DNA of 64,000 nt. It comes from a bacterium (GTDB lineage: Bacteria; UBA8248). Where the stretch lies: contig OZ242260.1 in NCBI GenBank assembly GCA_965207065.1, positions 1,472,001 to 1,536,000 on the forward strand. Direction: 5' to 3'. Under the pieces are notes generated by a model, which saw only the letters and a list, made by a program, of their open reading frames with translations, was not told the origin of the DNA and ran no database searches. Below are positions 3,639 through 54,777 of the stretch, one piece after another. Positions within the stretch are counted from its first letter, which is position 1. Each line of letters begins with the position of its first letter. Both the position numbers and the translations under genes were made by a program.

Positions 3639-4281
3639 TGTAGCTCCCCGGTGGTGCATATGTGACGCCCCATCAAAACACAAAACGAGGCCTGTGGGTA
3701 TCTTTCGCGCCATGTTTCGGAGGCTGTGCTATAAGTCATATTTTATCAAACGGTTGCGGTGGATTCCTGTTCGCTCCAAAGGCGCCGCGCCGCGCAGATT
3801 CCCCCAATTGCCGCTTCAGGCGCGCCGCCGGGGACGCGGTATCCTCGCAATGCTTCTGCGGGAGTGAGATTTTCGACCCCGCAGTTCCCCGCATTTCCCG
3901 TCACCGCCGGACCCCCGGGTCATGGCAGAATCTTCCTGCGCATCGCTTCTGCGGCGCCTTTTCCCAAGAAAATAAATTCCCATCAATTTATCGAATAACC
4001 CCGTGAATTTATCGAATTTTATCGATATATCCAGAATATAAAAATTAAATTATTGTTTTTAAGCTAGTTACAAATTCATTAAAATAATTGTAATCAAAAC
4101 GCAAGCTGGTTCATTACAACTACAGCGTATGCGGGCGGGTCCGTGTCGGGTTAACCATGGTAAGCGTTCGGCGGGAGGGTGATGGATGTCAACAAAGCAG
4201 GGTTCCAAACCAATTGCACCGTACTAAATCAACAAATGCTTCCGTTGTCAGAGACAATCTCACCGCTTAACCGAACGCTTA

Positions 4282-6310
4282 TTGCGCCAGGCTAAGCCCT
4301 GGAGAGGAGGATGCCATGACCTGAAACCTCTCGTAGCGACCCAGCGGGTTCGACTCCCGCCCGGCAAAGGCGAAGCCGGCCAGCCGGAAGCGAGTCTTGC
4401 ATGGCGTGCGGCAACGCCCGTCGTGAAGCGTAGACAGCAGGTGACGAAGCGGCGGGGTAAGCCTCGAAATCGGTGAATCGACGACGCCTTCACTGTTAAG
4501 CGTGTGGGGGCAGCACCGGAAGCGCCGCCATCGGCGAGGCGCAACGGGTCGTCCGGGGTCGTGGACCGGCGCAAAGTTACGGGGATGGGTCGCCAGGGAA
4601 CCTGGGAGATCCTGCTCTTGCCCGTGGGCAAGAATGCTGGAAAGGGGACGGCCAGCGTGAACAATCCAGACCCCGGTCCGTCGCCGGACCTGCACGGCGG
4701 CGGGAGCGCCCCATGGCGGACACGAACCCGGCAGGCGCCCGCGGAACCGGCTGGCGAAAACAATAAGCCGAAGGACATGCGAGGGCAGGAAGTCGTAGCG
4801 CCCTGATAGTACCGCTGAAGGCGGGGAACCGTGGCCACCGGGACCCGCTGGAGGGAAGCGGGGCGTCATCTGTACAGAGCCACTGATGGGAAACGCTGGA
4901 GGAAACTCTGAGTTCCACGAACACGTACACGAAACAGCAGTGGATAGCCAAACAGGCGAGGGAGCATCCGGAGCGGGTGTTCACGTCCCTGCACCACCTC
5001 ATCGACGGCGAGTGGATGCGCGAAGCGTATCGCCGCACGCGCAAGGATGGGGCGAGGGGTATCGACGGCGTGAGCGCCGCCGACTACGAGAAGGACCTGG
5101 AGGTGAATCTTGACGACCTCCTGAGCCGGATGAAGTCGGGTCGATACTTTGCGCCGCCGGTGCGTCGGCACTACATCCCGAAGGCGGACGGCACGAAACG
5201 ACCGCTCGGCATTCCGACGTTCGAAGACAAGGTGGCGCAGCGGGCAATCCTGATGCTGCTGGAGCCGATTTACGAGACGGACTTCCTGACGTGCTCGTAC
5301 GGCTTCCGGCCCGGACGGTCGGCTCACGATGCCCTGGCCGCACTTCGCACGGGCATCATCGAGCAGCGCCAACGGTGGGTGATTGACGCCGATATCTCGA
5401 GGTACTTCGACTCGATATCGCACACCCACCTGCGGTCATTCCTCGACCTGCGGATCAAGGACGGCGTCGTAAGGCGCATGATTGACAAATGGCTGAAAGC
5501 GGGGGTTCTCGAAGAGGGAACCGTGCACAGGCCGGTCACCGGCACTCCCCAAGGCGGGGTAATCTCGCCGATGCTCTCCAACATCTTCCTGCACCATGTG
5601 CTGGATAAGTGGTTCGAGGAAGTGGCGAGGCCGCGCTTGCGCGGAAACTGCCAGCTGGTGCGATTCGCCGACGACTTTGTCGTCGCCCTGGAAGACCGTC
5701 ACAGCGGCAAGCGGTTGCTTGACCTGCTGGACAAACGTCTCGGCCGATTCGGACTCACGCTCCATGAGGCCAAGACGCGCTATGTGGACTTCCGCCGGAG
5801 GCGTCCCTACGGGCGTCACTGGATGGCGTCGACCACGACGTTCGACTTCCTCGGCTTCACCCACGTCTGGGGGCGGTCGATGCAAGGCAAGGACGTCGTT
5901 CGCCAAATCACGGCGAAAGGCCGCTTCGCCCGCGCGCTGAAATCGGTGCACGAATGGTGCAAGAAAAACCGGCACCTGCCGATTAAGGCGCAGCATGACC
6001 ATCTCGTCCGGGCGATACGAGGCCACTGCGCATATTACGGTCTGAGGGGGAACGGCAAACGTCTTCGGTGGTTCCGCTACCAGGTGGCTCGCACGTGGCG
6101 GAAGTGGCTTGCGCGCCGCAACCGCCTGCGTCGCATGAACCGGGACTGGATGAACGCGCTCCTCATGCGATACCCCCTTCCATATGTCTCTTACGCGCGC
6201 TCACGGCAAAGCTTCCTGAGCGAACCTGTCGGGTGAGGAACCGAGTGCGTCAATCGCGCACGCTCGGGTCTGTGGGGGGCGGGGCGCAGAAATGCCCCCG
6301 CCTACCCGGC
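4282..6310 (+). mobile_element. Full-length group II intron
   Basis: 5' TTGCG; domain V-like GGAACCGAGTGCG...CGCACGCTCGGGTCTG; end CCTACCCGGC; boundaries confirmed by the sibling copy at 52934-53742. Confidence 0.92.
4896..6236 (+). CDS. ltrA: Group II intron reverse transcriptase/maturase, no endonuclease domain
   Basis: RPLGIPTFEDK, YGFRPGRS, GTPQGG and RFADD motifs; inferred start is CTG at 4896 (ATG in the sibling), alternative GTG at 4977. Confidence 0.93.
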   Translation: MEETLSSTNTYTKQQWIAKQAREHPERVFTSLHHLIDGEWMREAYRRTRKDGARGIDGVSAADYEKDLEVNLDDLLSRMKSGRYFAPPVRRHYIPKADGTKRPLGIPTFEDKVAQRAILMLLEPIYETDFLTCSYGFRPGRSAHDALAALRTGIIEQRQRWVIDADISRYFDSISHTHLRSFLDLRIKDGVVRRMIDKWLKAGVLEEGTVHRPVTGTPQGGVISPMLSNIFLHHVLDKWFEEVARPRLRGNCQLVRFADDFVVALEDRHSGKRLLDLLDKRLGRFGLTLHEAKTRYVDFRRRRPYGRHWMASTTTFDFLGFTHVWGRSMQGKDVVRQITAKGRFARALKSVHEWCKKNRHLPIKAQHDHLVRAIRGHCAYYGLRGNGKRLRWFRYQVARTWRKWLARRNRLRRMNRDWMNALLMRYPLPYVSYARSRQSFLSEPVG

Positions 6311-6354
6311 CTAACCATGGGTAACCATTCGTTCGTAGGGTGATGGGGGCTGTT

Positions 6355-7227
6355 TCAGCGGTTGAGGACTTGCTTCCAGTTGTTGCGGAGGGGCTTTAGC
6401 CAGATGTCCTTTCTGGGTTTGTCGTGGCGATTGTACCTGTCGTATCGTCCGCGTCCCTGTGTGGTTCCCACATGGATCCATCCCGATGCCCTGTAGACGG
6501 CGCCGGTGTAGCGGGGCGTCTCGACGAAGGTTTCGATGAGAACGGGGGTCGTGTTGTAGCGTTCGGTCCAGTCTTTGGGCAGGCGCCTGCGGACGATGGC
6601 GAGGAGGTGCGAGCCGAGGTTGGGGATCTTGATCCATGGCAGGATGAGGAACCTCGGGTTGTCGACCACGAGGGGGAGGTTCTTCTCGCGCAGCCCGGGC
6701 GTCCAGCCGATGAAGGCATCGCGCGGAGCGAGCTTCCACGCGGCGGTGGAGAAGCCGAGCATGGCGAGGGGCCTGCCGTCGCGGTCGTGGACGGCGTAGC
6801 GCATCTGGGCGCCGACGAGGGTCTTGTAGCCGAGGTAATGGTAGCGGACGACGAACTCGTTCCAGAGCCTGCCCTCGCGGGTTCCGCGCACGACGACGCG
6901 CATATCGAGCGTGCGTACCTCATCGAGGGTCTCAGGCGCCGGGATGAGGGGCGCTTCGGTGTCGGGTCCGAAGACGATCGGCCCGGGCCGGTTCTGGCGC
7001 CACTTCGGAGGCGGCAGCGTGATCAGGCCGTCCTTGTGCATGGCGAGCATGGTCACCCGGGCCATCATGTCCTTGAGTCCGCCGTCGGGTTTGAACCAGC
7101 CGATGCGGCGGCAGAACTCCTTCGATAGCGCATGGCGGTTGAGCGCAGGAGGACCGGCGATCAGTTCGCGCAGAAGCGCCATCTCTTCCGTCGTGAAGTC
7201 GCGCCCGTAGTAGCGGCACTCGATCAC
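6355..7227 (-). CDS. DUF4338 (DruA-like) domain protein, passenger of an IS66-like element
   Basis: WNEFVVRYHYLGY, AAWKLAPRD.FIGW, NPRFLILPW and ETFVE...YRASGW motifs. Confidence 0.85.
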   Translation of the reverse strand: MIECRYYGRDFTTEEMALLRELIAGPPALNRHALSKEFCRRIGWFKPDGGLKDMMARVTMLAMHKDGLITLPPPKWRQNRPGPIVFGPDTEAPLIPAPETLDEVRTLDMRVVVRGTREGRLWNEFVVRYHYLGYKTLVGAQMRYAVHDRDGRPLAMLGFSTAAWKLAPRDAFIGWTPGLREKNLPLVVDNPRFLILPWIKIPNLGSHLLAIVRRRLPKDWTERYNTTPVLIETFVETPRYTGAVYRASGWIHVGTTQGRGRYDRYNRHDKPRKDIWLKPLRNNWKQVLNR

Positions 7228-21090: not shown

Positions 21091-21320
21091 TCACATTTCT
21101 TTCGCCGATTTACCAGGTAATTCGGGCGCGACTTCGGAGATAGTCCGGCTGATTTGCTCGATCTCTTCCTCTCGTCCGGCCTTCTCCATGTCGCGGATGA
21201 TGGCCTGCGCGGTGAACATGGCAGAGCGCAGGAGGTGAATTTCCGCCTCCGTGCGCGGCCATTCGCGGCGTTTCAGACCATCCATTGTGAACTCGACCAC
21301 GAGCCGGTTCGGTGAAATGA
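21091..21320 (-). pseudogene. 3' part of a small repeated gene (possible ribbon-helix-helix protein), copy 1
   Basis: SPNRLVVE...WPRTEAEIHLLRSAMFTAQAIIRDMEKAGREEEIEQISR; recurs at ~32720, ~35620 and ~37960. Confidence 0.55.
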
Positions 21321-21419
21321 CACCCTGAACACAATAGGCAACTTCCGGTTTGAGCGCCAGATTGTGGCGTGGCGGGATCGTTCGTAATTTGCTCTTCGCC
21401 GCAAGGGATAATATTATTA

Positions 21420-23135
21420 TGACAAATGACACGTTCAACGAAGTCCCAGAAAGCCGAGCGGATCAACGCAGCCTACACGCTGCTCGAGCAGGGCGTCACG
21501 GCGAACGAGGCTGTAGCGCTGCTATCGCAGCGTTTCGGCGTATCGCAGCGGCAGTCCTACCGCTACGTTCAGCAGGCGGTAGCCATGGGCCGGCCGAGCC
21601 GGTCGAATCCCGGATTCCCATGACAATCAAGATTCCGGGCGCGTTGGCGCAAGCCCTGCGTATGCAGGCCAGAAGCAGCGGTCAGGCCATCGGGGACATC
21701 GTTGGACGGGCCCTGAGACGCTTTCTCCCGGATGTGGATTGAAATGGCTGCGCGTCGCCCGGGTTCGCGGCCCGGCGTTGAACTTGATTATCGATTCGAT
21801 CGCCTGTTCGCAGCCAGACTCCAGAATGCCTACGAGATACTGGTTCCTGATCAGGTCCACAAAATCCCTGCCCGAAGACATGACACAGGAGACGAGGATG
21901 AAAGTCGCAGCCCTTTATGCGTGGGTCTCGGGCGAGCAGCAGAGGGAGAGCAACACGATCGCCAGCCAGACCGAGGCGCTGGTCGAATACGCCAGGAACC
22001 ACGGCTACAGCGTCGCGCCGGAGATGCTCGTCTAGGATGACGGCTACAGCGGCGCTGTTCTCGAGCGTCCGGGGCTGGAGCGGATCAGGGACCTCGCCGC
22101 GGAAGGGCGCTTCGATACATTGGTGGTTCATGCCCCGGACCGTTTGAGCCGCCGCTACGCCCACCAGATGCTGATCATCGAGGAGATGGCCCGCCAGGGC
22201 GTTGAGACCGTGTTCGTGAACGCGCCGTCGATGGAAACCCCGGAAGACAACCTCCTCGTCCAGTTCCAGGGCATGATCGCGGAATACGAGCGCGCACAGA
22301 TCCTGGAGCGTTCGCGTCGCGGCAAGCGTCATCGGGCGCAGCGTGGTGAAGTTGCGGTTCTCGGAGGCGCGCCTTATGGCTACCGCTACCACAAGAAAAC
22401 CTTCGAGAGCGATGCCTATTATGAAGTGCTCGAACCTCAGGCGTCGGTGGTTCGCGAAGTCTATCACTACTATACTCATGACCACATGAGCATTGGCGAG
22501 ATCACCCGCAAGCTCAACGAGCGGGCGGTGCCCACGTCCTCCGGTCGCGGACGCTGGGAGCGTTCGGCCGTGTGGGCGATGCTGCGCAACCCGGCGTACA
22601 AGGGCAAGGCGTGTTTCGGCAAGACCCGCCAGATGCCGCGAAAAATCGTGACCCGTCCCTTGCGATTGCGCGGCGGTGTGGCCGGCGCCACCACCGGCGG
22701 TCACGAGAAACCGCGTGAGGAATGGATCGAGATTCCAGTGCCGGCGATCGTCAGCGAGGAAACCTTCGCCCTGGCCGAAGAGCGGCTGGAGATGAACAAG
22801 GCCCGCGGGCCGCGCCGAACAAAGACGCCCAGCGTGGTGCAGGGGCTGGTCTCATGCGCCAAATGCGGCTATTCCCTGTATCGCACATCGACCCGGACGA
22901 GCGCCCGCACGATTTACTATTATCGCTGCCTGGGGCCCGATGCATGGCGGCATCTCAACGGGCCGGTATGCGACAATCGGCCGGTGCGCCAGGATCTACT
23001 TGACGAAGTTGTCTGGAGCGAAGTCGTCCGCCTTCTCGAGGATCCGAATCTGATCGGCGCCGAGATCGAGCGTCGGCTGGAGGCGGCCCGCGACTCCGAC
23101 CCCTGTCGGCAGCGCGAGACCGACTTGCGGCGCCG
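21420..23135 (+). mobile_element. Large serine recombinase element remnant (small upstream ORFs; recombinase from 21898 with TAG at 22033, 3'-truncated)
   Basis: AALYAWVS, DDGYSG..LERPGL, DRLSR, APYGY and CAKCG zinc ribbon. Confidence 0.8.
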
Positions 23136-23510
23136 GTGTTCGTCGTCGAGGGAGAGACGGCGGAGTTCAGGGTCAGGTTCCAGATACGGCCTTATTACCT
23201 TCGCTATTCGTACCGTACGGAAGATGAAACGGCGACGGGGGGTGAGGATTACAGTCCTGTCGAGGGCACGGTGGAGTTTGCTCCGGGAGATACGTCCCGG
23301 ACGGTTTCGGTAGCGACTCTTGCCGACGACGTTTCGGAGGGTCACGAGACTTTCAGGTTGGTGTTTGATAATCTCAAGATCAAAAACAAGGCGACGATCT
23401 ACGATGCCCTGCGCGGGAGCGGTCCGGAATGGCGTGACCCCGGCCCCGGCGAACTCGCTCTCTTCCCGGGGGAGTGGGCCCTGTACGCGGTGATCAGGGG
23501 GTCGAACTGA
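23136..23510 (+). pseudogene. Calx-beta domain fragment
   Basis: YRTEDETATGGEDYSPVEGTVEFAPGDTSRTVSVATLADDVSEGHETF. Confidence 0.7.
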
Positions 23511-26259: not shown

Positions 26260-27957
26260 GTGCAGCCGGTGAGAGTCCGGCAGGAGGGAGAAGGCCAGCC
26301 ACCACCTCCACCCCGAGTCATGGGCCGCCACTCGCGAGGGTGGGGGCCAAGCGTTGACAGGGGCGCCGTGCGAGCGGGGCTATTGAGCACCGAAAGAATT
26401 ATTGTCCGGGATGTCGAGGTTTTCCCCTCAGCCGAAGACAGCATCCGACCCGCCGATATGGCGAGGCGTGCCGGAATCCCGCGGTGTCAAAGAACGCACG
26501 TACGCCCTCTTCCGGGACCTGGGAGGTCTCCATGTCACCCCGCCGTCGTTGCGGGGTCGCAGAGGGAAGGGTGCAGCGAGACTAGCTGCTGTGCTTGCGG
26601 GTGAAAGTCCCGCCGGCGCAATTCTCAGTTTGGCGCCGTAGTCATATCCGGCAGGCATTCGGGGCGACCCGGTGACCTGATAGCCCGGAAGTAAAAGCCT
26701 CGGGAGGCCGGGGAACCTTCGGGAACTCCAGGCCTGGTCAGCCCGCTGAGGCGAGCGAACAGGAGGGCCGTAGCGAGAGCGAACGGACTAGACGCCGAAA
26801 ACTGCGACCCGCGTGAAGCTGATTCGAGCGGAGTTATCGGAGTTGCCAAGGGTTTCTCCTTCCTACCTGATGGCCAGTGTCGATACGGAAGAACTGAGGC
26901 GCACGTATCGGAGCTCCCGGCGTAAGCTGAAGGCGGCAATCCTGGAAAGTACAGCAGTGAAAGTCCGGAAGGTGTGGAGGTTGGACAGGATGACCCTGTG
27001 AATGTCGAAGACCGTCTCTATAACCGGGGGAGCCGGGAAGTGAGACGGAGACCCCCACACTGGCGGATGAGGTCGCCAAGCGATGAAGGGTGGGACAACA
27101 TAACCCACCCGGAGCGAGGACCTCTGGGCACAGGCGGCGGAGCCGTTATGAGCATCCCGCACACAGAGGCGGGTTAACCGCTCTCTCAAATGGTGACGCC
27201 TGAGGACGGAGTAAACGTTGGACTCGCCGAGGGGTATGATGGGGTCGGTCTTAACCCCGGCGGTTCCGCGGAAGGCTCCGCTCCAAACTGGGAGGTGCCT
27301 GTTGCTTGAAGCCGTACCCGGGAAAACCGGACGTACGGAATTTCAGGGGGGACGCTGGAAACGTGGTCTATGGTGGAATTGCGCACCCACCCGCAATCGA
27401 AAGAGCGGGGTCGGACAAGCCTCCACCTAAGGATGCGCGCGCCAGTGTCCTACCCGACAGGAATCCGTAACCGATGATGAACGGCATGGAGAAGTCAGAC
27501 TTAAGTGTAGTAGCCGAGAAGCCGACGAACAAGGGGACGCGAGTTCTGGCGGAGTCGGTGGAGCGAAGGGCCGGGCCCGAGGGGAATCCGGGAAGCCAAA
27601 GCACGCGCCGGACACAGGGCCGGGAAAGCGTGTCACAAGCGGCCGACCGGATACGGCAATTCGTTGTACAGGAACCACGGAGCGTCTGACGACGCTTCTC
27701 CACCATATCACGGTCGATGCGCTGCGCTGGGCGTTCTTCGAGTTGAAGAGGGACGCTGCGGCGGGTGCGGACGGGATGACGTGGCGGATGTACGAGGAAG
27801 GGCTGGAAGGCCGTCTAGCCGACCTGCACGAGCGCGTACACACGGGAGCGTACCGGGCGACGCCGTCACGGCGGGTGAACATTCCGAAGCCCGACGGCGG
27901 GACACGACCGCTCGGCGTCGCGGCCATCGAGGACAAGATAGTCCAGAAGGCGGTGAC
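26260..27957 (+). mobile_element. Outer group II intron (5' boundary approximate), RT frameshifted and truncated
   Basis: Domain I-like sequence is continuous across the inner intron; RT fragment AAGADG...HTGAYRATPSRRVNIPKPDGGTRPLGVAAIEDKIVQ. Confidence 0.75.
26571..27458 (+). ncRNA. ORF-less group II intron nested in the outer intron (twintron)
   Basis: GTGCAG start; domain V GAAGCCGTAC...GTACGGAATTT; end CCTACCCGAC; EBS1/EBS2 complementary to the upstream flank. Confidence 0.82.
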
Positions 27958-38481: not shown

Positions 38482-39399
38482 GTGCGCCGTGGAAAGGCGC
38501 CATTCCCTAGCGGGTGCGAATCCCGCCCGGCAACTGTCGCTCCAGCCGGTAGCAATCGGGGCGGGTGATGGAGGCAACGACATGGCCTGAAGCACTCCGA
38601 TGGAAAAGGGCCGCCACGGGCGGCTCAGCGACCATGCGGGCCGCAACGCGAGTGAACGCCGAGCAGGCCTCGAAAATGCATGATGCGAGTGCCGACCCGC
38701 CTATGCAACGGGGAAGGCTGTCACCGGCCGGGAAGCGAGCGACATGAGCACCGGCCGGGTCTCGCCGGGGTAGTGGCGGCGGCACGCATGGAAGATGGGA
38801 ATGGCAGCAACACGGGAAGCCCTGCCGGTGGAGCGCACACTCCAACCGGAACCCCGCGAGGGGCAGGCCGGGCCGGCAGGGTGGCGGATGGGCTCGTAGT
38901 ACCTGAGAGGCCGGGTAACGCCGGCGGAGGAAAGGAGCCCTGGTTCGGGAGCGATGCGGAAAGGGAGGAAGGGCATGACCACTGGCGAGAGCCTATCAGG
39001 GTCGGAAAAGGCTCGGAAACTCCAGACCGTGTTACATGCGAAAGCCAAGGAAGAACCCGGACGGCGCTTCCACGCGCTGATAGACAAGGTGTGGCGCGAA
39101 GACTTTCTGGCCGAAGCCTGGAGGCGGGTCCGCCGCAATCGCGGGGCCGCCGGGGTGGACGGAGAGACGTTCGCGGACATCGAGGCGTACGGCGTGGGAC
39201 GCTGGCTCGGGGAACTGGCGCGGGAACTGAAGGATGGGGTATACGCACCGAAGCCTGTGCGACAAGTGCTCATCCCGAAGAAACAGCCCGGCAAGTTCCG
39301 GCCTCTGGGCATCCCCTGCATAAGGGACCGGGTGGCGCAGACGTCGGCCCTGCTCGTGCTTGAGCCGATATTCGAAGCGGACCTGCAACCGGAGCAGTA
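38482..39399 (+). mobile_element. Group II intron 5' part with RT (from ~38975) truncated by IS256
   Basis: GTGCGCC start; RFHALIDKV, GAAGVDG and RPLGIPCIRDRVAQ motifs. Confidence 0.85.
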
Positions 39400-48322: not shown

Positions 48323-49291
48323 CTATCTATCAGGCCATATTTCAGCATCCTCGCCCGGTTCTTGATTTGGCCTGAAATCCAGCAGGTAGGTTTCGGGGTC
48401 GATTTTCGAGAACGTAACATCTGTCCGGCCATACTCGATGAGGTGATGCCTCGTCACATACACGCCAGAACCAACACGTAGACGCGCCCTCAAGTAAGCA
48501 CCGAGCAAACTGTTGTCCTGTGTAGTGTGCAATCCCTTTCCGGCATCTTGAGCGCGAACACATATGAAGCTGTCGCCATCATCCGTAAGAACCGTGAATT
48601 GCTCAAACCTGTCAGGGAAGAATCCACTACGCCCCACGCTTGCGGGAATGTTGATGTAGGCTTGGTTCGGGTTTCTCCCAGACCTTTGCCCCCAGTTAAT
48701 GCCCGATCTGGTAGGCGTCTCACCTTCTCTCGAAAGAAGAGTGAGGGTAACGCTTTCAAGTGGGCTTCCCGTCTCAAAACCCTTCCGGCTTTGCAGCAAG
48801 GTGATCTGAGTGTCGATATGGGGCTGAATGCAGTCCGATGCGTTCCTGAGAATGAGGTTGTGGAAGTCGTTTGCATCGCATGAATCGGCTGGGGACATGA
48901 CCTCTATTTGCGCCCTTCCGAATCCCGTCATAGTATAGTTGGCGGAGCCGCAGAAAGCCTTTATCGGCTCTCCTTTGGCATTCAACCACACATACGATTT
49001 AGCATGAACTGGATTGCCTCGAACCACGTATCGGCAAATGAAGTCCGTATCCCAGGACGGATGATCCATCATTTTGCAGAATGCGGAATGCTGGGCTTCC
49101 TCTATCCCGTGTTGTATCGTCATGCCGATTATGAGTTCTATCGAGATGTTGAGGTCTAGTTCCTTCAGGTGCTCCATATGCCTGTCGGCCATATTCGCGG
49201 TAGCGAATCCGCTGACAATACGCAGGCGCCCTCCGTTCACGTCATACGCGGGCGATAGCAGGACTTCACGGAAGAGGTCTTCGTGGATCAT
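48323..49291 (-). CDS. PLD-family type II restriction endonuclease (NgoFVII-like)
   Basis: IVSGFA, HAKSY...GSANYT...E; C-terminal SGINWGQR..RNPNQAYI domain. Confidence 0.82.
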   Translation of the reverse strand: MIHEDLFREVLLSPAYDVNGGRLRIVSGFATANMADRHMEHLKELDLNISIELIIGMTIQHGIEEAQHSAFCKMMDHPSWDTDFICRYVVRGNPVHAKSYVWLNAKGEPIKAFCGSANYTMTGFGRAQIEVMSPADSCDANDFHNLILRNASDCIQPHIDTQITLLQSRKGFETGSPLESVTLTLLSREGETPTRSGINWGQRSGRNPNQAYINIPASVGRSGFFPDRFEQFTVLTDDGDSFICVRAQDAGKGLHTTQDNSLLGAYLRARLRVGSGVYVTRHHLIEYGRTDVTFSKIDPETYLLDFRPNQEPGEDAEIWPDR

Positions 49292-50373
49292 ATTGTGAGT
49301 TCATAAGCAGGGACGTCATGCTTGACGAGTGAATTCAGGACGGCGCGATAAACGACCTCCGCGCCCTTCGGTGGAACGGCCATGCCGATTTGCTTTCGCA
49401 CGGATTCTTTCCCGCCCTCAAAGACAAAGCTGTCGGGAAATGTTTGGAGTCTCGCCCTTTCTCTATTCGTCAAGGCGCGATTTTCTTCCCAATGATATAG
49501 ATGCGTTCCACCGCCACCGGAACCAGTAACCGTATAGCTTGGCGCATCCGGCTTGAGTCTTCTGTAAATTTGGCTGATGGTTGCGCCGCTCTTGAGGTTC
49601 AATTTTAGATGCTTGGGCAAATCAGCCGTGAAGGCGTTCTCTCCCGGCTTGATATGTTTCAACCTCTCGACAACATTTCCAGACTGGTTTGTGCGCTCGT
49701 TGTTGGTCGCATCATCCGGTATGTCGCTCAATGCTTCTTTAGCCGTATTGAAATTATCCATGTGTGTGGGCGCAGGATGCTCGAAAGAATCAATGCCCAG
49801 GTCTTTGCGAAAACCGACCACGAACAATCTGTGGCGCGCTTGAGGCACTCCGTATTCCTCTAGGCGATAGGTGTGCGGGAAAATCGCATATCCGGCTTTT
49901 CGCAGGGAAGACAGGATGATGGCAAAGTCTTTATTATCACCGCTCGACTTGATGCCGCTCACATTCTCGGCTACGAAAAATGCAGGTTTCTTCGCCTTGA
50001 GCGCACGCACTCCCCAGATGTAAAGGCCACCATGCTGGCCAGATATACCCCGTCGCTCTCCTATTACGCTGAAATCATTGCATGGGAACCCGAAGGCCAG
50101 CCCGTCAATATCCGCCAGTTCCTTGAAGTCCAAGTCCTTCACATCCCCGCACATGACACCGCCTTCCGGCAACGGGATATTATTTTCGAGCGTCTTGCAA
50201 GCATCCGCGTCCCTGTCGTTTACCCACACGTGAACGAAACCATGCCCGCCCACCTTCGCGTTGTGCGCGCCCAGCGTCATGCCTCCTGCACCAGCAAATA
50301 ATTCACCTATCCGATAGGTCTTGTGATCCGGAGATGGAGCCATAGCGAGCGCAAGCTGATTGTCGAAGCTCAT
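49288..50373 (-). CDS. DNA (cytosine-5) methyltransferase
   Basis: ELFAGAGG, GFPCNDFS, ENV, YGVPQARHR, RERARLQTFP and QIGMAVP motifs. Confidence 0.95.
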   Translation of the reverse strand: MSFDNQLALAMAPSPDHKTYRIGELFAGAGGMTLGAHNAKVGGHGFVHVWVNDRDADACKTLENNIPLPEGGVMCGDVKDLDFKELADIDGLAFGFPCNDFSVIGERRGISGQHGGLYIWGVRALKAKKPAFFVAENVSGIKSSGDNKDFAIILSSLRKAGYAIFPHTYRLEEYGVPQARHRLFVVGFRKDLGIDSFEHPAPTHMDNFNTAKEALSDIPDDATNNERTNQSGNVVERLKHIKPGENAFTADLPKHLKLNLKSGATISQIYRRLKPDAPSYTVTGSGGGGTHLYHWEENRALTNRERARLQTFPDSFVFEGGKESVRKQIGMAVPPKGAEVVYRAVLNSLVKHDVPAYELTI

Positions 50374-51296
50374 CCGGTAAGCTCCCGCCAAGAGAGTTTC
50401 CCGCAGGTGATGCGGCTGATGATGTTTTCACATCGGATGCCTGAGCTTCGCTCTTTCCTCATGTTGAATCGAGCGGAGTATTCGTCCACATAGCGATGCA
50501 AATGCTTCGCGCTCATCTTGTAATAGACGCCGATATAACCGCGCTTGAGCAAGCTCCAAAAGCTTTCCACGCCATTCGTATGCGCCATGCCCTTCACATA
50601 CTGGCCTACGCGGTGGTTCACCATGACATGATGATAGAGACGGCCTAGATGCCGATAGGAGAGAAACTCATCCGTTGAAATGACCGACCCGGATGCGACC
50701 GACTTGAGGACTTCCCTTGCTATGGTGCGCTTCTTGGTGTTCTCGACTGGACGGGCCACAATATCTCCGCCTCGTTGTAACATCGCCAGGACGGGTTTCT
50801 TCGTTTTTAGACTGCGCCCCTTGGTTCCTCCGGTGCGCTTGTGTTTATGCTTGTTGGCCTCTCGACCCCCGATATAACTTTCATCGACCTCAATCGTTCC
50901 CGAGAGCTTGGGAGCCTTTTCGGTTGCGCCAAAGGCTTTTCTGATTCTGTGTTCCATGAACCATGCCGTATTGTATGCAACGCCAAGCTCACGCTGCAAC
51001 TGCGTAGCGGGAATGCCTCTGCGATTCGAGGACATGAGCCATATCGCCACGATCCATTTTCGGAGAGGAACTGGAGAATCCTGAAATATCGTGCCGATTC
51101 TCACAGTGAATTGATCACGGCAATCAGCGCACTTATACCGCTTCCCATCGCTGAAAGCATAGACCTTGCCCGTGCTTCCACACTTAGGGCAATACATCCC
51201 ATGCCGCCACCTGATTTGCGCGATGTACTTGTGAGCCGCTTCCTCGTTCGGTATGTTTTCGTATAGCTGATTCAGGCTGTCAAAACTTATTTCCAT
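50370..51296 (-). CDS. IS1595-family transposase
   Basis: CPKCG/CADC zinc ribbon, EVDESYIGG, STDEF, VNH and HTNGVESFWS motifs. Confidence 0.93.
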   Translation of the reverse strand: MEISFDSLNQLYENIPNEEAAHKYIAQIRWRHGMYCPKCGSTGKVYAFSDGKRYKCADCRDQFTVRIGTIFQDSPVPLRKWIVAIWLMSSNRRGIPATQLQRELGVAYNTAWFMEHRIRKAFGATEKAPKLSGTIEVDESYIGGREANKHKHKRTGGTKGRSLKTKKPVLAMLQRGGDIVARPVENTKKRTIAREVLKSVASGSVISTDEFLSYRHLGRLYHHVMVNHRVGQYVKGMAHTNGVESFWSLLKRGYIGVYYKMSAKHLHRYVDEYSARFNMRKERSSGIRCENIISRITCGKLSWRELTG

Positions 51297-52618: not shown

Positions 52619-54777
52619 ATGAACATCGCAGAACTCAAACAAATTAGCCGGACTGGACCGGTTCTCGACATAACTAATTACACAGATCATTTCATAAGGT
52701 CACTTGTTAAGTTGATCCGAAGCACGAAACGTCACGGCGTTATGTTTGAGACGGAATCGTCGACTTCCGCAGCCGCATGGCTACTGTGTATAGCGGATGC
52801 CAATGCTTTCGGAACCCTCAGCACCGACGCTCAGTTGGAATGTACATTTCCCGAGATGGCTCCAAACCAACTCCTAGGATTTCGGGGGCAGAAGGCCAAA
52901 TATGAGAGTATTGTGACTAGACTGCATCGATTATTGCGCCAGGCTAAGCCCTGGAGAGGAGGATGCCATGACCTGAAACCTCTCGTAGCGACCCAGAGGG
53001 TTCGACTCCCGCCCGGCAAAGGCGAAGCCGGCCAGCCGGAAGCGAGTCTTGCATGGCGTGCGGCAACGCCCGTCGTGAAGCGTAGACAGCAGGTGATGAA
53101 GCGGCGGGGTAAGCCTCGAAATCGGTCAATCGACGACGCCTTCATTGTTAATCGTGTGGGGGCAGCACCGGGAGCGCCGCCAATGGCGAGGCGCAACGGG
53201 TCGTCCGGGGTCGTGGGCCGGCGCAAAGTCACGGGACGGGTCGCCAGGGAACCTGGGAGATCCTGCTCTTGCCCGTGGGCAAGAACGCTGGAAAGGGGAC
53301 GGCCAGCGTGAACAATCCAGACCCCGGCCCGTCGCCGGACCTGCACGGCGGCGGGAGCGCCCCAGGGCGGACACGAACCCGGCAGGCGCCCGCGGAACCG
53401 GCTGGCCAAAACAATAAGCCGAAGGACATGCGAGGGTAGGAAGTCGTAGCGCCCTGATAGTACCGCTGAAGGCGGGGAACCGTGGCCATCGGGACCCGCT
53501 GGAGGGAAGCGGGGCGTCATCTGTACAGAACCACTGATGGGAAACGATGGAGGAAACTCTGAGTTCCACCAACACGTACACGAAACAGCAGTGGATAGCC
53601 GAACAGGCGAGGAATGCCTCGACCTGCGGACCAAGGGTGACAACCCCTTGAGCGAACCTGTCAGGTGAGGAACCGAGTGCGTCAATCGCGCACGCTCGGG
53701 TCTGCGGGGGGAGGGGCGCAGCAATGCCCCCTCCTACCCGGCCCTCAAGAAAAGCGTGTCGAGGCAGACAAAGCTTTCAGTTGGTTTCGTGCTGCAATTT
53801 CAGCTTGGCACAATACAAACTTCCGCTACCTTAATGACATGTTCGACAATGGTGGGGTTGAGCATGAGTCCGCCATGGGTGTCGCGCAACATTACCAACT
53901 CCCCACTTTTTTAGTGGACTGGACATGGAATCCTTTCGTGGCCTTGGCGTTCGCCATGTCCGATCTAAGGGATGGTGAAGAGGGCGTGGTCTTTCTTCGA
54001 GATTTTGGCGACGGAACTAACCCAACATCCGACTATAACGTTCTTTTGCCGCCGTCGTTTGCCAAGAGAGCTTGGCGTCAAAGGGCGTTCTTTTCCTGGC
54101 ATCCAGTTGCTCCTGAGGATTGGGACAATCCGGTCGTGCAGAGAATTGCAGGGGATATTCCGCGGCATAATGCAATGCCCAACAATTATTATCACATCAA
54201 ATTTCGTGCGACTGAGAGTGACATAAAATGGGCGAAACAGAGTTATGCTGGATTGATGAAGGAGGATCTGCCCGGCTTGGGTTGCTTGGCGAAATGGTGT
54301 TTAGAAGCCGCACGAAAGGGCGCGAATGGGCCTTTACATCCCAATGTTCTCTCGTTGGATGATTTCCAGAAATGGTGTAATCGTTGCAACTTGAATTTAC
54401 CTGAGTTTGTGGTGACGAATCGAGAAGTGGAAGTAACAGAGAACTTTGCTCTCATGATGGATTATATAGATGAAATGAGCGTTAGGCGTAATCCAAGTAA
54501 TGGCACAATCGGTTACTTCATTCCGAGTGTGTTAACGGCCTGTGTGGGAATGCCATGGAACAGTTGTATGAAGTATCCCGCCCGCGGACTTAAGAACCTG
54601 AATGATCCAAGAGCAGATGTTTTCTTTGACGATGATGGGCAACCCTGTATGGATCACTGGCATAAAAAGCTGAGCTATATGAAGTCGTTGGTTGACATAA
54701 GACGTATACAGAACGACGATTTTTTTCGATCAATGTTTGTAGAACGCCCGCGGGGAAAGAGGCAACAAATCGGTTAA
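52619..54777 (+). CDS. FRG-domain protein in two exons (52619-52933 and 53743-54777; 449 aa after splicing)
   Basis: GFRGQ in exon 1 and AQHYQLPTFLVDWTWNPFVALAFA in exon 2; intron removal joins HRL|PQEK in frame. Confidence 0.85.
52934..53742 (+). ncRNA. ORF-less group II intron, internal-deletion sibling of 4282-6310
   Basis: Highly similar 5' ~670 nt and 3' ~90 nt; RT ORF deleted. Confidence 0.92.

What the first reader, a model, noticed from the sequence alone, without database searches (positions are those of the whole stretch)
52619..54777. FRG-domain gene that can be expressed only by splicing an ORF-less intron with re-matched EBS motifs
Seen: removing 52934-53742 restores a 449-aa FRG protein in frame. 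The intron is a deletion derivative of 4282-6310. Its putative EBS1 is TAATCG (53149-53154), pairing with exon end CGATTA, whereas the full copy has TAAGCG (4497-4502), pairing with CGCTTA. The putative EBS2 also shifts (TCGGTG to TCGGTC) to fit ACCGA versus GACTG. Both exons are free of stops although much of the island is decayed. Inference: the intron still splices, probably using the maturase of the full copy in trans, so a candidate defence gene depends on a distant retroelement.
Basis: partly seen in the sequence, partly recalled or inferred. Interest (0 to 1): 0.72.

Follow-up and report, generated by a model that had tools for sequence, protein, structure and literature searches.

The report
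Protein-less mobile intron inside FRG gene
A small self-splicing-type (group II) intron that has lost its own helper-protein gene recently jumped into a candidate anti-phage gene of a sponge bacterium, so the gene can be made only if the intron is cut out of the RNA; this is a known kind of event.

Summary
The core observation holds. Window 52934-53742 is an 809-nt ORF-less group II intron (Rfam D1-D4 model 123.6 bits). Removing it gives a 449-aa FRG-domain protein that lines up with intron-less homologues without a gap at the junction.

The "re-matched EBS" reading does not hold:
- The intron is 809/809 identical to a copy 768 kb away that sits in the family's usual target, the tip of an insertion-sequence inverted repeat.
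- Its EBS1 and EBS2 are the family's commonest forms. The window's full-length copy is the odd one.
- The proposed EBS2 fit occurs at 12-16% of mock sites.

This is a very recent, off-target retrotransposition of a non-autonomous intron lineage that also occurs in related species. Intact exons therefore say nothing about selection.

Splicing is plausible, because the copies moved recently and D5/D6 show compensatory changes, but it is untested: RNA libraries covered only the intron. The only uninterrupted maturase of the family has CTG where relatives have TTG or ATG, and the closest one is broken by an insertion element.

This is a new member of a known kind (Thermosynechococcus-type ORF-less introns). 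The scan has noted similar cases in other genomes.

The parts
52619..52933 (+). Exon 1 of the FRG gene (105 codons). Carries the FRG motif itself at residues 88-90. A GAGG ribosome-binding site lies just upstream.
   Evidence: No Pfam hit on its own, but it aligns with the N-termini of 7 full-length homologues.
52928..52933 (+). IBS1 (CGATTA), the last six exon bases. Pairs 6/6 with EBS1.
52934..53742 (+). ORF-less group II intron, 809 nt, boundaries 5'-UUGCG...GGC-3'.
   Evidence: Rfam RF02005 123.6 bits and RF00029 35.7 bits. Precise ends are shared by 7 copies in the genome. Identical to genome 2292740-2293548.
53122..53127 (+). EBS2 (TCGGTC) in an internal loop of domain 1. Pairs 5-6/6 with the usual target (G/C)(A/G)CCGA at -13..-8, but only 2/6 with the FRG exon in that register.
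   Evidence: register count read from the alignment.
53149..53154 (+). EBS1 (TAATCG) in the terminal loop of a domain 1 hairpin.
   Evidence: Structure line of the cmscan alignment.
53547..53651 (+). Remnant of the maturase ORF in domain 4 (ATG plus 34 codons plus stop). It includes a roughly 30-nt piece from mid-ORF that closes a hairpin.
53670..53702 (+). Domain 5 helix with a 2-nt bulge. The catalytic-triad position reads AAC (53671-53673), with the middle A opposite G.
53704..53742 (+). Domain 6 with a bulged A at 53736, the 7th base from the 3' end.
53743..54777 (+). Exon 2 of the FRG gene (344 codons plus stop). Its first base, C, follows the intron in all 7 copies (candidate IBS3).
   Evidence: Pfam FRG PF08867 41.1 bits, profile positions 55-91 only. 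PADLOC PDC-S15 E 6.3e-13..
4282..6310 (+). Full-length sibling intron (2029 nt). It sits at the tip of an insertion-sequence inverted repeat.
4896..6236 (+). The only uninterrupted RT/maturase ORF of this family in the genome (446 codons). Its first codon is CTG.
   Evidence: Pfam RVT_1 126 bits. PDB relatives LtrA and GsI-IIC RT. tblastn of the genome. Start codons. dN/dS 0.18-0.21 against orthologues.

Best explanation
A young copy of a non-autonomous (ORF-less) group II intron lineage inserted by retrotransposition into an off-target site in an FRG-domain (PADLOC PDC-S15) gene. It lies in the sense orientation, between the strand that carries the FRG motif and the next helix.

Target choice is explained by base pairing: the family's standard EBS1 pairs 6/6 with the exon end, and the next exon base is the C that follows every copy. 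Nothing in the intron was adapted to this gene.

The ribozyme looks intact and was active very recently. If the gene is transcribed and a family maturase is present, the intron should splice and give the 449-aa protein. Without splicing, the product is a 230-aa read-through that lacks most of the FRG domain.

Shown: the intron, its exact ends, the colinear spliced product, the identity with another copy, the family-wide EBS motifs, and the state of the maturase genes. Inferred: recent mobility implies a working ribozyme and a working maturase in the recent past. I put splicing in vivo at about 45-50%. The dependence of the gene on a distant retroelement is an accident of insertion, not a maintained arrangement.
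For: - Rfam matches.
- A 449-aa product that is colinear with 8 of the 9 homologues spanning the junction.
- 0 of 809 differences from the copy at genome 2292740 and 2 of 809 from the copy at 2259640, with unrelated flanks and the same exact ends. This means movement as an intron, recently.
- 16 of 18 flanked copies across genomes lie in one repeat (...ATCACC...CGAACGNTTA|C). The FRG site does not.
- EBS1 and EBS2 are the family's majority forms.
- D5/D6: 7 of 39 predicted pairs keep pairing through changes on both sides among 7 sequences.
- The Rfam scores of the short and full copies are equal: 123.6 versus 123.7 bits, and 35.7 versus 35.3 bits.
- ORF-less forms with the same domain-4 hairpin exist in G013, in G044 (another family of the class), and in G002 and G011 at 73% identity.
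- The maturase ORF 4896-6236 is open, with dN/dS 0.18-0.21 against orthologues.
- Only the FRG copy, of 7 in the genome, splits a long open frame with substantial sequence on both sides: 140 + 344 codons.
Against: - There is no direct evidence of transcription or splicing.
- The only uninterrupted family maturase starts with CTG. The closest maturase, in the 99%-identical full copy, is split by a 2223-bp serine-recombinase element.
- The D5 triad reads AAC, and D5-D6 scores below Rfam's gathering threshold. A review I read in passages lists only AGC or CGC (PMC4424553).
- IBS2 pairing in the normal register is 2/6, which could lower splicing efficiency.
- No intron-less allele close enough to date the event was found.
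Confidence: 0.6

Rival explanations
1. The gene is in effect dead. The intron landed there recently and is not removed in vivo, either because no working maturase of the family is left or because the weak IBS2 pairing and unusual core make splicing too poor. The exons look intact only because there has been no time to decay.
For: - The insertion is very young: 0 of 809 differences from a sister copy.
- The closest maturase is broken by an insertion element, and the only open one begins with CTG.
- The surrounding island is full of broken mobile DNA.
- The gene call on record for this locus is a 312-aa fragment starting at an internal Met.
- IBS2 pairs 2/6 in register.
Against: - The same RNA sequence spread to at least three sites recently, which needs a working ribozyme and reverse transcriptase.
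- The maturase ORF 4896-6236 is open and shows purifying selection.
- CTG can start translation at a low rate (general knowledge, not tested here).
Confidence: 0.3
2. One reading: the intron's EBS1 and EBS2 changed to fit this gene, so the gene and the intron form a maintained, co-adapted pair that relies on the distant maturase.
For: - EBS1 pairs 6/6 with the exon here, and the full copy's different EBS1 pairs 6/6 with its own exon.
- Position -4 shows six pair types across copies.
Against: - The FRG copy is identical to a copy in the standard target, and its EBS forms are the family majority.
- Shuffles reach the observed pairing in 6% of trials overall and 12% at position -4.
- The EBS2 fit is at chance level, 12-16% of mock sites.
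- The FRG gene was not found in 22 of 22 congeners searched, so there is no sign of a long joint history.
Confidence: 0.06
3. The intron self-splices without any protein, so the gene does not depend on a maturase at all.
For: [quoted passage not shown]
Against: - This intron keeps the start of the maturase ORF and the domain-4 stem, as do ORF-less forms that live beside maturase-encoding siblings.
- Its spread needed a reverse transcriptase.
- This was not tested.
Confidence: 0.05

Closest known systems
ORF-less group II introns of Thermosynechococcus elongatus (Mohr, Ghanem & Lambowitz 2010, PMC2882425; I read the outline and abstract)
   Same: Multi-copy family in one genome. [quoted passage not shown] Target specificity diverges. 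Insertion is preferentially into other mobile elements.
   Different: Different host (sponge-associated bacterium) and a different RNA type (Rfam D1D4-6, maturase without an endonuclease domain). This copy sits inside a candidate defence gene. The maturase supply looks marginal. Nothing has been tested experimentally.
ORF-less bacterial introns with a trans-acting IEP, as summarised in Zimmerly & Semper 2015 (PMC4424553; passages read)
   Same: [quoted passage not shown]
   Different: The review says most bacterial introns lie outside host genes. This one splits a conserved protein domain. Its boundaries (UUGCG...GC) and triad (AAC) differ from the GUGYG...AY and AGC/CGC given there.
UHB.I2, a group IIB intron in an integron (Sonbol & Siam 2021, PMC7923331; passages read)
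   Same: Non-consensus boundaries 5'-UUGCG...GU-3': U as the first base and G as the penultimate base, as here (UUGCG...GC).
   Different: UHB.I2 was assigned to class CL1 with its own IEP and has a different target. I did not compare sequences.
FRG domain (Pfam PF08867) / PADLOC candidate system PDC-S15
   Same: Exon 2 passes the Pfam cut-off (41.1 versus 25 bits) and matches 13 PDC-S15 models, best E 6.3e-13. The FRG motif is in exon 1. Iyer et al. 2022 (PMC9503650, passages read) place Frg in the ADP-ribosyltransferase superfamily as a possible antiviral NADase effector.
   Different: This is a 449-aa subfamily with a long C-terminal part that matches no family. Only 10 relatives were found, at 34-59% identity. 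A defence role has not been tested here, and PDC systems are candidates only.

Membership tests
Group II intron (ribozyme) | Domain 1-4 core matching a curated covariance model | tested here: met
   RF02005 123.6 bits against a gathering score of 49, full model 1-225.
Group II intron (ribozyme) | Domain 5 helix with 2-nt bulge and the AGC (or CGC) triad, and domain 6 with a bulged A | tested here: inconclusive
   The helix, the AC bulge and the bulged A are present, and 7 of 39 pairs co-vary. The triad reads AAC, and RF00029 gives 35.7 bits, below its gathering score of 40. All family members share this.
Group II intron (ribozyme) | Boundary consensus 5'-GUGYG...AY-3' | tested here: not met
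   The ends are UUGCG...GC in all 7 copies and in relatives at 73% identity. A sister family in the same genome has GUGCG...AU. One published intron has UUGCG...GU (PMC7923331). This is a variant of the consensus, not a reason to exclude the element, since D1-D4, the EBS/IBS pairing and sibling IEPs are all present.
Group II intron (ribozyme) | EBS1-IBS1 pairing next to the 5' splice site | tested here: met
   6/6 here, and 94 of 108 cells paired across 18 copies. The covariation itself is weak: 6% of shuffles reach the observed value.
Non-autonomous (ORF-less) intron served by a sibling maturase | No RT/maturase ORF in domain 4 | tested here: met
   Only a 34-codon remnant is present.
Non-autonomous (ORF-less) intron served by a sibling maturase | A related intron with an intact maturase in the same genome | tested here: inconclusive
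   One open 446-codon ORF at 97% intron identity, but with a CTG first codon. A second is split by an insertion element.
Non-autonomous (ORF-less) intron served by a sibling maturase | Splicing or mobility that depends on the maturase supplied in trans | not testable with these tools
   This needs an experiment. Indirect support comes from three near-identical copies at unrelated sites.
FRG domain protein / PDC-S15 | Match to the Pfam FRG model above its cut-off, with the (F/Y)RG motif | tested here: met
   Exon 2 scores 41.1 bits over profile positions 55-91. The FRG motif is at exon 1 residues 88-90. The homologue P0003 covers profile positions 5-88 in one piece.
FRG domain protein / PDC-S15 | Anti-phage activity | not testable with these tools
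   Context only: a type II restriction-modification pair lies at 48323-50391, with integrases and transposases around it.
ADP-ribosyltransferase superfamily (proposed for Frg) | ART fold | tested here: inconclusive
   Model of P0003: pLDDT 81.7, pTM 0.84. Foldseek gives no match at E <= 0.001. In the wide VIA search 5 of 50 rows are ART toxins over model residues of about 79-370 at Z 2.9-3.4, below the tool's stated noise level.

The most novel reading that the evidence does not exclude
The insertion works as a switch. A potentially toxic NAD-targeting defence effector is kept silent because its catalytic domain is split by a non-autonomous intron, and it is produced only when a retroelement maturase encoded about 48 kb away is expressed. 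Defence would then be gated by the activity of a mobile element.
Probability: 0.06. Interest if true: 0.7.

Novelty: new member of a known kind. Interest (0 to 1): 0.33.

Why it matters
If the intron splices, this would be a bacterial protein-coding gene outside cyanobacteria, and a defence candidate, whose expression depends on a maturase encoded elsewhere in the genome. That would be a small natural model of how introns and a shared splicing factor can become separated.

As things stand it mainly shows how non-autonomous group II introns spread in a sponge symbiont rich in mobile DNA, and how such an element can knock out, or make conditional, a defence gene.

The family's unusual core (U at the first base, G at the penultimate base, and AAC where AGC is expected) in copies that moved recently may interest ribozyme specialists more than the FRG gene itself.

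Tried and rejected
1. RNA evidence. One search found 17 RNA libraries holding 5-12% of the sampled words. I laid 3 RNA runs and 1 DNA run, all as contigs. The RNA contigs covered only the intron (about 52928-53744), mostly with 1-10% differences, so they come from other copies or strains. No FRG exon was covered and no 52933>53743 joint was seen, so nothing can be said about expression or splicing. The DNA run carried both exon-intron junctions without differences and showed no intron-less joint.

2. Close or intron-less alleles. Nothing was found in 22 congeners or in the other 38 relatives searched, apart from a 39-residue weak match. Nothing was found in metagenome contigs or genome contigs.

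3. Minimum-free-energy folding of the whole intron was uninformative (z -1.44).

4. The covariation test of EBS1/IBS1 was weak. The EBS2 fit was at chance level.

5. Fold searches with the model of homologue P0003 gave no clear match in Foldseek PDB or in the wide VIA search.

6. The joined (spliced) protein was made only inside scripts and was not sent to Pfam, structure prediction or the database searches. The homologue P0003 stood in for it.

7. Literature. For an AAC triad, one full-text search gave 2 papers, of which I read passages of one, the review PMC4424553, which lists only AGC or CGC. For UUGCG ends, one search gave one relevant paper.

8. I considered a DNA-level duplication as the source of the identical copies and rejected it. 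The flanks are unrelated, and identity starts and stops exactly at the intron ends.

Full report
WHAT IS THERE

Window 52934-53742 is a group II intron. Its 5' part (53003-53220) matches Rfam RF02005 (group-II-D1D4-6) at 123.6 bits against a gathering score of 49. Its last 75 bases match the D5-D6 model RF00029 at 35.7 bits, E 1.2e-4 in a 3-kb search, which is below the gathering score of 40. The full-length copy at 4282-6310 gives nearly the same scores, 123.7 and 35.3 bits.

The short copy has no reverse-transcriptase ORF. It keeps only an ATG plus 34 codons (53547-53651).

THE HOST GENE

- Joining 52619-52933 to 53743-54777 in a script gives 449 codons and a single terminal stop.
- Exon 2 alone passes the Pfam FRG cut-off (41.1 versus 25 bits), but only over profile positions 55-91 of 94.
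- The FRG motif itself is in exon 1, at residues 88-90.
- A database search with exon 2 found 11 proteins. One of them is the locus's own gene call, a 312-aa fragment that starts at an internal Met.
- Of the other 10, 9 span the junction. 8 of those 9 align without any gap there (...HRL|PQEK... against ...YRLPEQER... and the like). The most distant, P0011, has one extra residue next to the junction.
- Shifting both splice sites by one base would put Ser in place of the Pro that 5 of the 9 homologues have at that position (read from the alignment).
- In the homologue P0003 the FRG domain is continuous (profile 5-88). The junction corresponds to residue 101|102 of P0003, between the strand that carries FRG and a long helix in the predicted structure.

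THE INTRON FAMILY

The genome (4.48 Mb, one contig) gave 13 matches to the 809-nt intron. The intron copies are:
- Three 809-nt ORF-less copies: the FRG copy; genome 2292740-2293548, with 0 differences; and 2259640-2260448, with 2 differences.
- Two 790-nt ORF-less copies at 92% identity.
- Two full-length copies: the window's 4282-6310 (97% over positions 1-679) and genome 2285140-2289399 (99%).

So the short intron is not a direct derivative of 4282-6310. It belongs to the lineage of the other full copy. The coordinates printed are one base too high because of a counting slip in my script. The variable EBS bases are at 53152 and 53127.

All seven copies share exactly the same ends, are preceded by TA and are followed by C, while their flanks are unrelated. 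They therefore moved as introns, not by DNA duplication.

The family is also present in 9 of 22 other species of the genus and in 2 of 7 genomes of another family of the class. Whole-length ORF-less forms occur in G013 (91%), G044 (89%), and G002 and G011 (73%). These forms keep the same mid-ORF fragment, which closes a domain-4 hairpin whose loop varies in length. The ORF-less form is therefore an established non-autonomous lineage, not a one-off decay product.

TARGET SITES AND THE "RE-MATCHED EBS" CLAIM

Of 18 copies with a 5' flank, across 9 genomes, 16 sit at the end of one repeat...ATCACC(4-8 nt)(C/T)GAA(C/T)(C/G)N(A/T)TA|C. This repeat is the tip of the terminal inverted repeat of an insertion-sequence family and of a roughly 123-bp miniature element. 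The FRG site and one other site (genome 28155) are off-target.

EBS1 lies in the hairpin loop that the Rfam model leaves unpaired.
- It reads TAATCG in 6 of 7 copies of this genome and in 11 of the 19 copies aligned.
- Only the window's full copy and one copy in G005 read TAAGCG.

EBS2 reads TCGGTC in 4 of 7 copies of this genome and fits the standard target GACCGA. In the same register the FRG exon pairs only 2/6.

Across the 18 copies, 94 of 108 EBS1-IBS1 cells pair, but shuffling EBS1 among the copies reaches that value in 6% of trials, and in 12% of trials for position -4 alone.

The intron was not re-matched to this gene. The gene happened to carry a perfect IBS1 plus the C that follows every copy.

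AGE OF THE INSERTION AND WHAT THE INTACT EXONS MEAN

With 0 differences in 809 nt from a sister copy, the insertion is very recent, so stop-free exons carry no information about selection since the insertion.
- The exons are 47% G+C, against 59.5% for the genome and 65% for the intron.
- The gene was not found in 22 of 22 congeners searched.
- It lies beside a type II restriction-modification pair, integrases and transposases.

It is therefore a horizontally acquired gene in a mobile or defence island. It matches 13 PADLOC PDC-S15 models, best E 6.3e-13.

Passages in Iyer et al. 2022 (PMC9503650) place the Frg domain in the ADP-ribosyltransferase superfamily as a possible NADase effector. My structure check was inconclusive. 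The model of P0003 is good (pLDDT 81.7), but there was no Foldseek match at E <= 0.001, and ART toxins appeared only as weak rows (Z 2.9-3.4, 5 of 50 rows).

CAN IT SPLICE?

For:
- The same RNA sequence reached at least three sites recently. That requires forward splicing, reverse splicing and a reverse transcriptase.
- D5 and D6 keep pairing through double changes at 7 of 39 pairs among 7 sequences.
- The domain-4 stem and the start of the ORF are kept.

Against, or open:
- tblastn with the family maturase finds only one uninterrupted ORF (window 4896-6236). A second is cut at residue ~221-225 by a 2223-bp element that encodes a large serine recombinase. There is also a 105-residue fragment. 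Two copies of a sister family show 41% identity.
- The open ORF is under purifying selection (dN/dS 0.18 and 0.21 against orthologues in G014 and G019). But its first codon is CTG, where 7 of 10 copies examined have TTG, 1 has ATG and 1 has CTA. The short copies have ATG.
- The family core is unusual. The first base is U, the penultimate base is G, and the D5 triad reads AAC, with G or C opposite the middle A. A sister family of the same Rfam type in this genome has the standard GUGCG...AU ends and AGC triad.

Because the unusual features are shared by copies that moved recently, they are probably compatible with activity. That is an inference.

RNA libraries gave no information on the FRG transcript.

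COMPARISON WITH WHAT IS KNOWN

The closest precedent is the Thermosynechococcus elongatus intron family. There, ORF-less derivatives are spliced and mobilised by sibling maturases, target specificity diverges, and insertion favours other mobile elements (PMC2882425, abstract and outline).

The review PMC4424553 (passages) makes three relevant statements:
- ORF-less bacterial introns are rare and nearly always accompany related IEP-encoding introns.
- Trans splicing has been shown for a cyanobacterial IEP.
- Most bacterial introns lie outside host genes.

An intron with UUGCG...GU ends has been described (PMC7923331).

Earlier notes of this scan describe comparable ORF-less introns in other genomes.

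VERDICT

The element is real and the gene can be restored only by splicing. The co-adaptation story is not supported. This is a recent off-target hit by a non-autonomous intron, a new member of a known kind, and whether it splices remains open.

Noticed in passing
window 52934, 53741 and 53671-53673; the same positions in 4282-6310; loci L016, L017, L030, L031: The whole intron family has U as its first base, G as its penultimate base, and AAC where the D5 catalytic triad is normally AGC, with G or C opposite the middle A. Copies still moved recently. A sister family of the same Rfam type in this genome (genome 2317394-2319300 and 914000-915932) has the standard GUGCG...AU ends and AGC triad.
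   Followed up: partly
window 4250-4281 and 6311-6350; genome 2259518-2259639, 3202981-3203103, 61909-62031, 1962085-1962209: The family's usual homing site is the very tip of the terminal inverted repeat of an insertion-sequence family and of a roughly 123-bp miniature element. The ORF next to 6311, at 6355-7227 on the minus strand, matches Pfam DruA/DUF4338. Because two repeats often abut, the target is palindromic, and inverted intron 3' fragments lie nearby.
   Followed up: partly
genome 2286421-2288643; partial copy at window 21319-23137: A 2223-bp element with about 21-bp inverted ends that encodes a large serine recombinase is inserted in the conserved ...GGVISP... codons of the maturase gene of the full intron copy closest to the FRG intron. 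A 98%-identical partial copy of 1823 bp lies in this window.
   Followed up: partly
loci L016 (G013), L017 (G044), L030 (G011), L031 (G002); window 53603-53632: ORF-less forms in different species, down to 73% identity, keep the same mid-ORF fragment. With the start of the ORF it forms a hairpin that closes domain 4 (stem CAGGCGAGG/CCUCGACCUG or a co-varying GCCGG/CCGGC), with loops from 4 to 33 nt.
   Followed up: partly
window 4896-4898 and the same position in loci L004, L018, L020-L023, L029, L033: The first codon of the family's maturase ORF varies: TTG in 7 copies, ATG in 1, CTG in 1 and CTA in 1. An in-frame TGA lies four codons upstream. The start is therefore weak or uncertain across the family.
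   Followed up: partly
window 48323-50391 (minus strand): An apparently intact type II restriction-modification pair (NgoFVII-like endonuclease of 322 aa and a C5 cytosine methylase of 367 aa) lies 2.2 kb upstream of the FRG gene. It is flanked by an IS1595-type and a Mutator-type transposase.
   Followed up: no
window 26272-26778 and 38508-38651: Further group II intron remnants of other families are present (RF02005 at 169.3 bits; RF02003 at 86.7 and 57.6 bits), with only fragments of their maturase genes (window about 27680-27955 and 38987-39385).
   Followed up: no
window 52928-53744: Contigs from sponge and marine metatranscriptome libraries of several studies carry this intron family at 90-99% identity, in other sequence contexts. 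That is compatible with the family being transcribed in sponge microbiomes, but contigs from RNA libraries do not prove it.
   Followed up: partly
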